Shown here one piece after another: positions 1,663 through 59,608 of a DNA stretch of 64,000 nt. The stretch's first letter is position 1. Each line of letters opens with the position of its first letter. The stretch spans positions 56,978,001-57,042,000 of the forward strand of contig OX597824.1 in the NCBI GenBank assembly GCA_951406725.2, given 5' to 3'. The position numbers were made by a program, and so were the translations under genes. The notes under the pieces were generated by a model that ran no database searches, was not told the origin of the DNA, and worked only from the letters and a program-made list of their open reading frames with translations. This DNA is from Octopus vulgaris (taxonomy: Eukaryota).

Positions 1663-2028
1663 TATAATATTAATTCGAGACAAAACCACTATTTTGCAAA
1701 ACAAACAAGGAAAGACTTAATCAATACATAAAAATTTTAATATAAAGTAAATAAACCGCCACTACAATTGTTTCATGTCTTCAAATGACATTCGTCAGGT
1801 GGATTTCCGATCTTCTAATCAGTTTGAAGACATGAAACAATTGTAGTGGCGGTTTATTTACTTTATATTAAAATTTTTATGTATTGATTAAGTCTTTCCT
1901 TGTTTGTTTTGCAAAATAGTGGTTTTGTCTCGAATTAATATTATATAATATTTTACTATAAAATTGGATTTAATCCTACATCTGATTTTTTCCCTGTAAA
2001 TTTGGATTTATTCCCTAATATTTATTAT
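1381..2028. mobile_element. Nested fold-back PLE-terminus module (four partial copies of one terminus) in (TA)n
   Basis: Inverted arms 1461-1526/1545-1610 and 1661-1785/1823-1947; 1948-2028 is the reverse complement of 1381-1462. An HHR lies at the second turn. Confidence 0.8.
1759..1802 (-). ncRNA. Minimal type I hammerhead ribozyme, intact core
   Basis: Minus strand CCAC-CUGACGA-AUGUC AUUUGAA GACAU-GAAA-CAAUUG-UA-GUGG: stems I and II perfect, palindromic stem III, GUA triplet. Confidence 0.85.
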
Positions 2029-9577: not shown

Positions 9578-9752
9578 CCTAGCCACTACACATTCTTTAT
9601 TTTCTCTCCTTGTTTCTTTCTATGTTCCTTTCTGTGGAAGAGCGTAGGCTCGAAACGTTAAAGACTTTTTCACTTCCCGAGCATTATACTAATACATCTG
9701 TTTGTTGTCTACACCACCTGTCTTTGTCTTTTGTTTTTTGTGAATTCTCCCT
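9578..9752 (+). mobile_element. PLE terminal fragment with HHR-like motif
   Basis: CTGTGGAAGAGCGTAGGCTCGAAACGTTAAAGAC; homologous to minus-strand 18430-18660; flanked by (TA)n. Confidence 0.6.
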
Positions 9753-18429: not shown

Positions 18430-18698
18430 CGGGAAGCTTTATGAAAATAGACAAAAGACGAAGGCAGTTTTACGGAAATAAACAAAAGACGAAGGCAGGT
18501 GGAATACAAACAAATAATTGTATTAGTATGGCGCTCAGGAAATATAAATAAAACAAGTCTTTAACGTTTCGAGCCTACGCTCTTCAACAGAAAGATACAC
18601 AGAGAAAAAAACACAGAAAGAAGGAGAGAACAAAAAATATGCGTGCAGAGGCTAGCGAATCAACATGGCGATCTAATTTCGGCCAGAAGTCAAAGATC
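18430..18698 (-). mobile_element. PLE terminal fragment with HHR-like motif
   Basis: Minus CTGTTGAAGAGCGTAGGCTCGAAACGTTAAAGAC; homologous to 9578-9752. Confidence 0.6.
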
Positions 18699-19234
18699 AA
18701 ACGTGAGACGCAAGAGCGAAATTAAGGGAGATAATAGGGTTAAATGACCTCGCTCCAACATAAGAGTGTGTGTGTGTGTGTGTGTGTATGAGAAGAGTGT
18801 GTGTGTGTGTATGAGAGAGTATTAGTGCGTATGAGAGGTCTGGACGTGTGTATGTATATATGATGTGATGTGTAAAGTCGTATGGTGTAGTGTAGAGAGA
18901 GGAGATGAGGGAAGAGGGGGAGGTAAGGGGGTATATATACATATATATATATGTATATATATATGAATATATATATATATATATATTCATATATATATAC
19001 ATATATATATATATACCCCCTTACCTCCCTCTTCCCTCATCTCCTGTCTCTACACTACACCATACGACTTTACACATCACATCATATATACATACACACG
19101 TCCAGACCTCTCATACGCACTAATACTCTCTCATACACACACACACACTCTTCTCATACACACACACATACTCTTATGTTGGAGCGAGATCATTTAACCC
19201 TATTATCTCCCCTAATGTCGCTCTTGCGTCTCAC

Positions 19235-19238: not shown

Positions 19239-19290
<52 letters not shown>

Positions 19291-19291
<1 letters not shown>

Positions 19292-19512
19292 AATAAATGA
19301 AAGACTGGAGTTGAACAACGAATTAACAAAATTCCTTTATTTTCGACATATGTTTCGAAGGCTGCATATTCCTAATTTCGAAGGAATAAGGGGTGCATTA
19401 TGCCGCCTTCTCATAAGGAAAAACAAGGAACTTATGTCAGTATCAAGATGCACAAAAACTTTTAGATGACTGCCCACACGGAGCCCATAGCGATAATCAC
19501 GGAGCCCATAGC
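19291..19512 (-). mobile_element. PLE terminus with HHR (core mutated), same family as the 59.3 kb terminus
   Basis: Minus 19340-19422: UUUUC-CUUAUGA-GAAGGCGGCAUA...UAUGCAGCCUUC-GAAA-CAUAUG-UC-GAAAA. Confidence 0.75.
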
Positions 19513-19530
19513 GATATATATATATATATA

Positions 19531-57430: not shown

Positions 57431-57581
57431 TAATCTATCTAACTATCTCTCTCTCCCTCTATCTATCTATTTGCACATATATGCACATAGGGTTATGAAT
57501 ATTGATATATATTACAGATCAGTACATTATATATATATATGGTTGTTAAGCATCATTACGCTTCGTGCAAAGTTATAATTA

Positions 57582-59475
57582 TCTAAGAAGTTGGCTTTAG
57601 TTAATTCATCGTCAAAAACTATGCGCAAGCCCATTCTACTAAAAAACCTAACGATGAATTAAGTAAAGCCAACTTCTTAGACATTACCCTAAATTTGCAG
57701 AATAACTCATACTTCCCTTATCATAAACCTTCCACAAATCTTAAGTATATTAGCATTTTCAGTAATCATGCCAGGCCAATTACCGATAATTTAGTTAAAA
57801 ACATATCTCTGAGACTGTCCAAATTATCTGCTAATGTCGACATCTTTAACCAAAAGGCAGACTTCTATAACGCCGCCTTGTTAAGAGCCGGTTATAAGGA
57901 GAAAGTGTCATACATCGACTCAGCTCATTCTAAACCAACATCTGCTTCTCCAGATTGTAAAGGTACTCGTAATAGGAATAATGATTTCAATTCTAATAGT
58001 GCTAGCACCCCTGTACATAAAATAAATTCTTTACGGACTAGGCGGAGGTAAGCGCCATGCAACCCCAAATTTCCAACCCAGAAAGTTTCCCCTTACTATC
58101 ACAAATAACACTAAGAACAATTCAAAGGCCACAAAAAACTGTATCTGGTTCGTAATACCTTTCGGAAAACAAATTAAATCGAACCTTCCCTTACAGTTCC
58201 GTGAAGCCGTTGCTAAGAACTTTCCCAGAAATTCTAGATTACATTCTATTATCAATTCCCACAAGGTCAGAATCGCTTTCTCTAACACTAGGAATCTTTC
58301 ACAAATTATATCTTCCCACAATACCTAGCTGCTAAACAAAGATTCTTCACCCGGGAGTTCCAACACTAATCTTGCTAATTCCAACCCATCATACAATCAT
58401 AATAATAGGAATAGTATTAATAGTAACTGCATCGGTAGCAGCGAAAGTGTTAACAATGATAATATTAATAATAGTATTAGTCGTGTTAATAACAATGGTA
58501 GTGTTGATGGTAACAGCAATAACGGTATTATTGTCAGTGGTATTACCGGTTGTAGTACCATTAATAATACTAATAATAATAGAAATAATGTAGTTGTTAG
58601 CGCTAATAATAATAGTAACAACAATCATAACAATAAAAACTTCGTTTCGATCTCGGAGGACAACCCCAACAGAATTAAATTTTTGTCTAGTAATTCTAAG
58701 ATTAAGAATTCTATTTACCAGTGTAGAATTTCTTCCGGTACCGATGTCTTCTTCTATATAGGAGCGTCCACTTCCCAGTTATCCAAGAGAATTTCAAACC
58801 ACTATTCAACATTCAGGTATAGTAAAAAACGACATAGTACAGGGCTAAGTAAATTAATTTGGCGTCTTAAAGACAACAATATAATTTTCAAGTTCATACT
58901 GTCTGTATCCTTTCCTTTTGATAAGGGCTGGAGATTTTGTAACATTTGTAATTCTGAACTCTTCCATATTCTTTTCTCTAAGGTTCCCCTAGTAAACACA
59001 CTCATAGAAAAATCATACAAATGTAAACACTGGCAGAAACACACTTTCTACTCATATAAATGATAACGATAGTCACTGTGGTTTGAACAATTAGCTTTAC
59101 GTCCACCCCACTACTACAGAGAAATTCTTTCCTAAGCCTTCGAACATTCCTTCAATAAACGTACCCTTCCCTCTCCACTTGTTCCCTACCTATTATTCCT
59201 TTCTCTCTTCTCTTCCTACTATCTAACTTTGATGTCAATTCTTCTAACGGTTTTTTAAAAAAAAGCACTCATTATCGCTTTGTTTACCATGTAGGCAATC
59301 ATCGATTTTTTTTTGTTTGTCTTGTTGTCGAGAGAGGCTCCCTTTCTTTCCTGATGAGAAGATTGCATAATGCACCCTTTATTCCTTTGGAATGAAAAAC
59401 ATGCTGTCTTCGAAACATATGTCGAGAGTAAAGGAATTTTGTTAACATCTTCATTCGACTCCATTCTTTCATTTA
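57582..59475 (+). mobile_element. 5'-truncated Penelope-like retroelement: RT thumb, Asn-rich linker, GIY-YIG, HHR terminus
   Basis: NFLDITLNL...PYHKP...SNH (57662-57920), IWFVIPF...IISSHN (58143-58322), SIYQC...FYIG...RISNH...LSKLIW...CNIC (58683-59063); disrupted by a stop and frameshifts; ends in (TA)n. Confidence 0.92.
59346..59428 (+). ncRNA. Type I hammerhead ribozyme with canonical core in the PLE 3' terminus
   Basis: CUUUC-CUGAUGA-GAAGAUUGCAU...AUGCUGUCUUC-GAAA-CAUAUG-UC-GAGAG; GUC triplet, predicted cut after 59423; palindromic stem III. Confidence 0.88.
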
Positions 59476-59608
59476 TATATATATATATATAAAATTGTTG
59501 GCATCCTTTTTGTCTCGGGAGACAATGGAGTTGCGCATAAAATAGTCTAGTCCGGCTTTTACATTTCATGTCCTGATACATTTCCTGGTGTGGCTGTGTA
59601 TATGTATA

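What the first reader, a model, noticed from the sequence alone, without database searches (positions are those of the whole stretch)
59346..59428. Canonical HHR physically linked to its PLE, with a covarying solo relative
Seen: intact CUGAUGA/GAAA/GUC core about 290 nt downstream of the GIY-YIG stop. A homolog at 19340-19422 keeps stems I and II through different sequences (CUUUC/GAGAG versus UUUUC/GAAAA; GAAGAUUGCAU/AUGCUGUCUUC versus GAAGGCGGCAU/AUGCAGCCUUC) but has a core G5U change. Stem II carries an unusually long (~30 nt) insert. This ties the solo modules to an autonomous PLE partner and is the best candidate for an active ribozyme.
Basis: partly seen in the sequence, partly recalled or inferred. 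Interest (0 to 1): 0.7.

Follow-up and report, generated by a model that had tools for sequence, protein, structure and literature searches.

The report
Long-armed hammerhead in dead Penelope copy
This is a real hammerhead-ribozyme motif at the tail end of a broken copy of a Penelope-type jumping gene, one of thousands of copies in this animal genome; it likely cuts only as a pair or with protein help, and the unusual parts are its long hairpin-bearing arm and a parent element that lacks the zinc finger thought to aim such elements at TA repeats yet still sits in them.

Summary
A type I hammerhead (HHR) lies at 59346-59428, 287 nt after a GIY-YIG stop, and HHRs in Penelope-like elements (PLEs) are published. 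The interpretation mostly fails. This copy is 5'-truncated, lacks the RT active site and is broken. The 19340 homolog is a stub of a sister family (B) with its own RT and endonuclease (dN/dS about 0.1 against A), not a dependent solo. G5U is rare (3 copies versus 351 intact). The core pattern matches 3,097 places genome-wide. Stems I and II covary across 20 variants. Two monomers co-fold into a double hammerhead, but native flanks are predicted to misfold family A (1 of 38 copies favour stem I, against 35 of 50 in B), so this is not the best active candidate. Copies end 60 or 215 nt past the cut site, which fits copying of uncut RNA. Two features differ from published Hydra-clade elements: a 32-nt hairpin-bearing loop II (published 3-10 nt), and an Asn-rich linker without the CxCX5C motif, although (TA)n insertion persists. 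This scan has reported such elements elsewhere in this genome. Cleavage is untested.

The parts
59346..59428 (+). Type I hammerhead motif, family A: stem I 59346-50/59424-28, core 59351-57, stem II 59358-68/59401-11, GAAA 59412-15, palindromic helix III 59415-22, predicted cut after C59423
   Evidence: covariation
59369..59400 (+). 32-nt loop II insert with an inner hairpin 59378-85/59389-96
   Evidence: pair probability 0.96-1.0 in three contexts; partner audit
59341..59434 (+). Distal extension of stem I (59341-45 with 59430-34) beyond a 1-nt bulge, predicted
   Evidence: folds; not counted because the register slips between subfamilies
59326..59357 (+). Rival upstream hairpin predicted to trap the stem I 5' strand and the CUGAUGA box in family A
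   Evidence: MFE of 59300-59480; P(stem I) <=0.07 with native flanks
59064..59483 (+). 3' pseudo-LTR; the copy ends 60 nt after the predicted cut site and is followed by (TA)n
58659..59063 (+). GIY-YIG endonuclease region with CxxC-E...N-CxH; no CxCX5C linker upstream; 3-residue deletion
58329..58690 (+). Asn-rich low-complexity linker in the place where published Hydra proteins carry CxCX5C
57651..58328 (+). RT thumb and inter-domain part of the ORF, 5'-truncated after the catalytic motif; frameshift near 58044-58072; stop at 58326-58328
57582..57652 (-). 71-nt inverted piece of the same element at the 5' junction
57528..57581 (.). (TA)n tract (57528-57540), then 41 nt of unassigned sequence
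   Evidence: no match in fetched loci
19288..19513 (-). About 225-nt 3' stub of sister family B between (TA)n tracts; HHR at 19340-19422 with G5U

Best explanation
The motif is the hammerhead of the 3' pseudo-LTR of a 5'-truncated, broken copy of a Hydra-like Penelope retrotransposon, and it likely cuts only conditionally, as a double hammerhead or with help from the element's protein, while insertion likely uses uncut RNA. Shown: the anatomy, a full copy elsewhere with two HHRs 3,182 nt apart (pLTR-ORF-pLTR), covarying stems, insertion next to (TA)n, and two fixed 3' ends downstream of the cut site. Inferred: source elements are transcribed through both pLTRs; the GIY-YIG domain nicks TA-rich DNA; RT starts internally 60 or 215 nt past the cut site, reads through the intact HHR and usually stalls early, leaving pLTR stubs like the 19340 copy. 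Cleavage would act in another step, such as trimming multimeric RNA to unit length, and is kept under selection in source lineages. This particular copy is likely a passenger with no function of its own.
For: Full-length copy L130 with HHRs at 2177 and 5359. DKT, YRDD and CxxC/CxH motifs as in the Hydra clade (PMC8557442 section 11). Covariation over 20 hand-picked variants: 91.5% of 400 cells paired against 32-53% when slid; 5 pairs change on both sides; 15 such cells (0 of 500 shuffles). Unconstrained co-folding of two monomers gives the double-hammerhead fold with an 8-bp helix III duplex and open cores, 7.4 kcal/mol below two monomers, for both A and B. 3' ends: 17 of 38 family-A copies at +60 and 18 of 38 at +215. 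About 36 loci counted by eye in the first 100 of 165 rows are truncated near the cut site, about 3 of them exactly at it, with no pile-up. Core-altered RNAs were inserted: G5U in 3 dispersed copies, and A6G in all 9 HHRs found in one edited array. Precedent in an anole PLE: two internal RT start sites, HHR cleavage only with protein, and HHR mutants insert normally (PMC11167929, parts 1-2 of 4). Metazoan PLE HHRs are weak and dimer-type in vitro (PMC4209133, parts 1-2 of 4).
Against: No cleavage assay exists for this family. A 2-bp helix III with a tetraloop is described as typical of invertebrate HHRs that cut as monomers (PMC7229834 passages and section 14), so dimer dependence is not certain. 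In one search the number of pairs with two-sided change (5) is not above shuffles (198 of 500), the percentage paired is reached by 43 of 500 shuffles, and the rows are related and hand-picked. Read-through of the cut site fits a re-ligated circular template as well as uncut RNA. No fully intact ORF was seen: the longest frame was 615 aa among 150 scored EN hits and 785 aa in L131. The 3 G5U copies share few other changes, so they may be independent mutations after insertion.
Confidence: 0.72

Rival explanations
1. An efficient monomeric ribozyme: the long loop II hairpin docks on the stem I bulge, each pLTR cuts, and the 3,182-nt unit is ligated to a circle that is the RT template.
For: Intact core and 2-bp helix III with a tetraloop, as in active invertebrate retrozyme HHRs. 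Inner hairpin partner kept in 130 of 140 copies that have the 5' arm. Family B folds correctly in context (35 of 50). L130 is a more-than-unit copy.
Against: Family A is predicted to misfold in native flanks (1 of 38). Subfamilies B3 and C do not favour the HHR fold even in the shortest context. No loop-loop contact could be identified, and a candidate pseudoknot is broken in A3/A4.
Confidence: 0.15
2. The motif is kept mainly as a structured docking site for the element's protein, or as part of the pLTR promoter, and cleavage hardly matters.
For: Core-altered copies were inserted. The inner hairpin's 5' arm is nearly invariant, with no two-sided change seen.
Against: Without anchoring on the core, most of the 100 listed copies from many subfamilies keep CUGANGA while flanks diverge (read by eye). 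The variation seen within families is no higher in the core than elsewhere (7 of 852 cells versus 43 of 2,241 in the insert; the core was partly filtered).
Confidence: 0.08
3. One reading: solo HHR modules such as 19340 are non-autonomous elements mobilised by the family-A PLE.
For: Most family-B copies are short stubs without ORF. The two HHRs are 81% identical. Trans-mobilisation between sister families cannot be excluded.
Against: B copies extend into their own EN (3 of 30 loci, 69-81% aa identity) and RT (L136; 185 codons, dN/dS 0.10, dS 0.74; EN 81 codons, dN/dS 0.11). B stubs have ragged 5' ends, and no tandem unit was seen.
Confidence: 0.04
4. Chance resemblance to a hammerhead.
For: No Rfam match; weak folding z-score.
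Against: 0 of 100 shuffles; 3,097 matches versus 0; expected position in the pLTR; covariation.
Confidence: 0.01

Closest known systems
Hydra clade of C-terminal EN+ PLEs, including Hydra-1_Obim (Craig et al. 2021, PMC8557442; passages, sections 11 and 15, supplement parts 2, 3, 58 and search hits seen)
   Same: Single ORF with RT then GIY-YIG; DKT and YRDD; no CCHH; CxxC and CxH around E and N; 3' type I HHR with short palindromic helix III; (TA)n insertion; inverted 5' arms and a one-sided tail.
   Different: No CxCX5C linker (present in 9 of 9 Hydra rows of Fig. S7); Asn-rich linker; RWL for RWK; unit 3,182 nt (published generally <3 kb); loop II 32 nt with an inner hairpin (published 3-10 nt in 26 rows). 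The HHR sequence differs from that of Hydra-1_Obim, so this is another family.
Metazoan PLE hammerheads (Cervera and de la Pena 2014, PMC4209133; parts 1-2 of 4 read)
   Same: Short helix I, long helix II, G10.1-C11.1 pair, palindromic helix III; many single genomic copies from truncated PLEs; inverted pairs nearby.
   Different: No unpaired base between positions 9 and 10.1; much larger structured loop II. Long loops (29-35 nt) are on record only for two spike-moss PLE-X HHRs in the table.
Poseidon element PAc of the green anole (Frangieh et al. 2024, PMC11167929; parts 1-2 of 4 read)
   Same: Two internal RT start sites downstream of the HHR give the tail; the uncut RNA is the template; AT-rich targets.
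   Different: Different clade. The tail here is 155 nt, not 30-40. The HHR lies about 260 nt upstream of the start codon and does not overlap it. Nothing is tested biochemically here.
Animal non-LTR retrozymes (PMC7229834, passages and section 14; bioRxiv 10.64898/2026.07.22.740005, part 1 of 5, supplements closed)
   Same: Type I HHR related to PLE pLTRs.
   Different: No tandem non-coding unit: 74 of 96 loci have a single HHR, 20 have an inverted pair and 2 are otherwise, within about 1.5 kb.

Membership tests
Type I hammerhead ribozyme | Conserved core CUGANGA / GAAA / UH | tested here: met
   the 19340 copy has G5U
Type I hammerhead ribozyme | Three helices around the core with sequence support | tested here: met
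   91.5% paired, two-sided changes in stems I and II; helix III only 2 bp as a monomer, 8 bp as a dimer
Type I hammerhead ribozyme | Match to an Rfam hammerhead model | tested here: inconclusive
   no hit; the long insert may defeat the models
Type I hammerhead ribozyme | Loop I-loop II tertiary contact | tested here: inconclusive
   a candidate pseudoknot with the 3' flank is broken in A3/A4 and has probability 0 as a nested pairing; non-canonical contacts cannot be predicted
Type I hammerhead ribozyme | Mg2+-dependent self-cleavage after C17 | not testable with these tools
   needs an in vitro assay
Penelope-like element (EN+) | Single ORF with RT and C-terminal GIY-YIG | tested here: met
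   family level: L131 has a 785-aa frame; GIY-YIG fold. The window copy holds only the 3' part.
Penelope-like element (EN+) | Direct pLTRs with an HHR, inverted 5' arms, one-sided tail | tested here: met
Hydra clade | DKT motif | tested here: met
Hydra clade | N-terminal RWK motif | tested here: inconclusive
   RWL at that position
Hydra clade | No CCHH in EN; CxxC and CxH beside E and N | tested here: met
   read from translations against Fig. S7 rows
Hydra clade | CxCX5C linker before EN | tested here: not met
   0 of 15 distinct A/B EN starts, against 2 of 2 other ENs in the same loci and 32 of 37 EN-bearing database relatives
Hydra clade | Insertion into (TA)n | tested here: met
   35 of 38 A and 42 of 50 B 3' ends lie beside a TA run of 3 or more units; no random-site control, and the genome is TA-rich
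Hydra clade | Phylogenetic grouping with named Hydra elements | tested here: inconclusive
   A and B are sisters (100/100) inside a clade with CxC-bearing relatives (97/88), but no named Hydra reference was in the tree
Non-LTR retrozyme | Tandem non-coding 150-450-nt units, each with an HHR | tested here: not met

The most novel reading that the evidence does not exclude
An octopod PLE lineage has lost the linker zinc finger yet still targets (TA)n under purifying selection, so targeting lies in the nuclease or in TA-microhomology priming. Its hammerhead carries an added, conserved hairpin domain in loop II that works as a protein-docking switch: an upstream rival hairpin keeps the ribozyme off until the element's protein or a second copy turns it on.
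Probability: 0.18. Interest if true: 0.62.

Novelty: new variant of a known kind. Interest (0 to 1): 0.32.

Why it matters
What PLE hammerheads do is an open question (PMC8557442 section 15). This family gives natural contrasts to test it: predicted misfolded (A) versus well-folded (B) contexts, inserted core-altered variants, and two sharp RT start points. It is also a natural counter-example to the idea that the linker zinc finger directs microsatellite insertion. The flagged copy itself is an ordinary dead fragment among thousands.

Tried and rejected
Rfam, whole window and locus: no hammerhead among the listed hits, only simple-repeat matches (one search listed 150 of 352). Pfam: no RT or GIY-YIG match for the window pieces, L131 or 5 relatives. 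Word-index protein search limited to longer proteins: nothing. Foldseek E-values were weak (0.07-0.19), though ranks 1-9 were all GIY-YIG. A shared 5' boundary at 57651 in several copies first looked like a fixed non-autonomous element; it was the limit of my query, and those copies extend upstream. A type III fold using the upstream GUC at 59327-29 was rejected: it is about 10 kcal/mol above the MFE and not conserved in A2 or B. A pseudoknot between loop II and the 3' flank was rejected. Expression: no RNA holder listed; contigs of four runs guessed to be RNA cover the family but cannot show strand, ends or level, so they are not used as evidence. Paper searches showed no description of this long-loop, linker-less family; Repbase and most subscription journals are not searched. 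A sequence look-up of earlier findings gave nothing, and a word look-up showed no note on linker loss.

Full report
Observation. The motif is as described: CUGAUGA at 59351-57, stem II 59358-68/59401-11 (10 of 11 pairs), GAAA, a palindromic helix III, C17 at 59423 and stem I with 5 of 5 pairs. The stop of the upstream frame ends at 59063, 287 nt before the core. The homolog at 19340-19422 is on the minus strand, 67 of 83 identical, with G5U. A strict descriptor gives 1 hit in the window and 0 in 100 block shuffles. The core pattern has 3,097 exact matches in the 2.8-Gb genome and the reversed control 0. Rfam lists no hammerhead here, and the folding z-score is only -1.5.

The host copy. It runs from 57582 to 59483: a 71-nt inverted piece, then the 3' 1.8 kb of a PLE, then (TA)n. 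Against the 785-aa frame of L131 it starts at about residue 326, after YRDD, and carries a frameshift, a stop and a 3-residue deletion. It cannot be autonomous. The C-terminal domain is GIY-YIG by fold (pLDDT 83; I-TevI Z 8.9, rmsd 2.7, 89 aligned), though Pfam misses it. Longer copies show DKT and YRDD. L130 is a full pLTR-ORF-pLTR copy with HHRs 3,182 nt apart and a frameshifted ORF. I saw no intact ORF: the longest frame was 615 aa among 150 scored EN hits of 17,263 candidates and 785 aa in L131.

The 'solo'. It is a stub of about 225 nt from sister family B. Three of 30 B loci extend into their own EN, at 69-81% aa identity to A. L136 has its own RT. A versus B gives dN/dS 0.10 over 185 RT/thumb codons (dS 0.74) and 0.11 over 81 EN codons, so both lineages evolved as protein-coding elements. 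G5U is found in 3 copies against 351 intact ones; these 3 share few other changes.

Structure support. I collected 151 copies with a pattern that allowed at most 1 mismatch in the first core box and 2 in the second; the C20 array and twelve-odd long loci were left out. I picked 20 variants by hand for alignment. Over 20 pairs, 91.5% of 400 cells pair, against 32-53% when slid. Five pairs change on both sides; the cell count (15) and the covariation score beat all 500 shuffles, while the pair count does not (198 of 500). The rows are related, so this is support, not proof. The spacer between the core boxes is 53-61 nt, whereas loop 2 is 3-10 nt in the 26 Hydra rows of Craig's File S2; loops of 29-35 nt occur only in two spike-moss PLE-X HHRs. 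The insert holds a hairpin (P 0.96-1.0). Of 151 copies, 140 keep its 5' arm, and 130 of these have a partner: near in 70, far in 52, both in 8. Subfamilies that lost the near partner mostly keep the far one, which hints at selection on pairing, but I saw no two-sided substitution in it.

Likely activity. Helix III has 2 bp as a monomer. Two monomers co-fold, unconstrained, into a double hammerhead with an 8-bp duplex and open cores, 7.4 kcal/mol below two monomers. With native flanks, this copy's stem I probability falls from 0.97 to 0.00-0.07 because of an upstream rival hairpin. Stem I is favoured in 1 of 38 A copies and 35 of 50 B copies. The copy has no second HHR in cis; of 96 loci viewed within about 1.5 kb, 74 are single, 20 are inverted pairs and 2 are otherwise (direct pairs 3.2 kb apart are outside that view). 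It is therefore not the best candidate. Monomeric cleavage is not excluded, since invertebrate retrozyme HHRs with such a helix III do cut alone (PMC7229834).

Mechanism. Copies thus contain the intact junction. Truncations near the cut site are few and scattered: about 36 loci by eye in the first 100 of 165 rows, about 3 at the exact site. Core-altered RNAs were also inserted (A6G in an edited array). This fits the anole PLE, where RT starts at two internal sites, the HHR cuts only with protein and HHR mutants insert normally (PMC11167929). A re-ligated circle, as proposed in PMC4209133, fits as well. The anatomy and counts are shown; transcription, nicking, internal priming and conditional cleavage are inferred.

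Comparison. The element works like a Hydra-clade PLE (PMC8557442): DKT, no CCHH, CxxC/CxH, 3' HHR and (TA)n flanks (35 of 38 A, 42 of 50 B, no random-site control). It fails one defining feature. CxCX5C is in 9 of 9 published rows, 32 of 37 EN-bearing relatives and 2 of 2 other ENs in my loci, but in 0 of 15 A/B EN starts; an Asn-rich tract stands there. A tree of 36 RT rows (34 of the top 60 relatives passed trimming) puts A and B as sisters on a long branch inside a clade with CxC-bearing relatives, so the loss looks derived. I file it as Hydra-like, not as a member. Craig et al. cite the linker as the hypothesised microsatellite-targeting part; this lineage is a natural counter-example, unless other families mobilise it in trans, which the dN/dS values make less likely. 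Named relatives come from Octopus and Argonauta.

Verdict. The hammerhead motif is real and of a known kind, in a dead copy. The family is a modest new variant (long structured loop II, no linker zinc finger). This scan has noted HHR-tipped Hydra-type ends, long stems and the edited array elsewhere in this genome; those notes are leads, not evidence. Interest 0.32.

Noticed in passing
L127-L129 (G000:C20:23.329-23.356 Mb): Tandem and inverted array of family A with sense-strand A>G hypermutation: 235 of 272 mismatches at trusted sites in one full unit; 5' neighbour G 9 of 126 versus T 104 of 241 in another; units share most edits; all 9 HHRs found carry A6G. The pattern is ADAR-like.
   Followed up: partly
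L130:1901-5480 (G000:C10:102.20 Mb): Complete pLTR-ORF-pLTR copy with HHRs 3,182 nt apart and a frameshifted ORF. A different Hydra-type EN fragment lies just upstream at L130:241-693.
   Followed up: partly
window 9632-9659 (+) and 18563-18590 (-): Two copies of another short hammerhead-like motif with A6 replaced, in a different PLE-end-like repeat.
   Followed up: no
window 1763-1798 (-): Compact hammerhead with an intact core, CUGACGA, and a palindromic helix III; family not traced.
   Followed up: no
window 18680-19230: Large inverted repeat of about 250 nt per arm around a TA tract, between two HHR-bearing stubs.
   Followed up: no
P0004, P0008, P0108: Argonauta and Octopus database proteins named 'GATA zinc finger domain-containing' or 'myb-like' are PLE RT fragments related to this family; P0108 has the same Asn-rich linker start.
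   Followed up: partly
L033:3-1619: 539-aa LINE-type RT frame next to a family-A copy.
   Followed up: no
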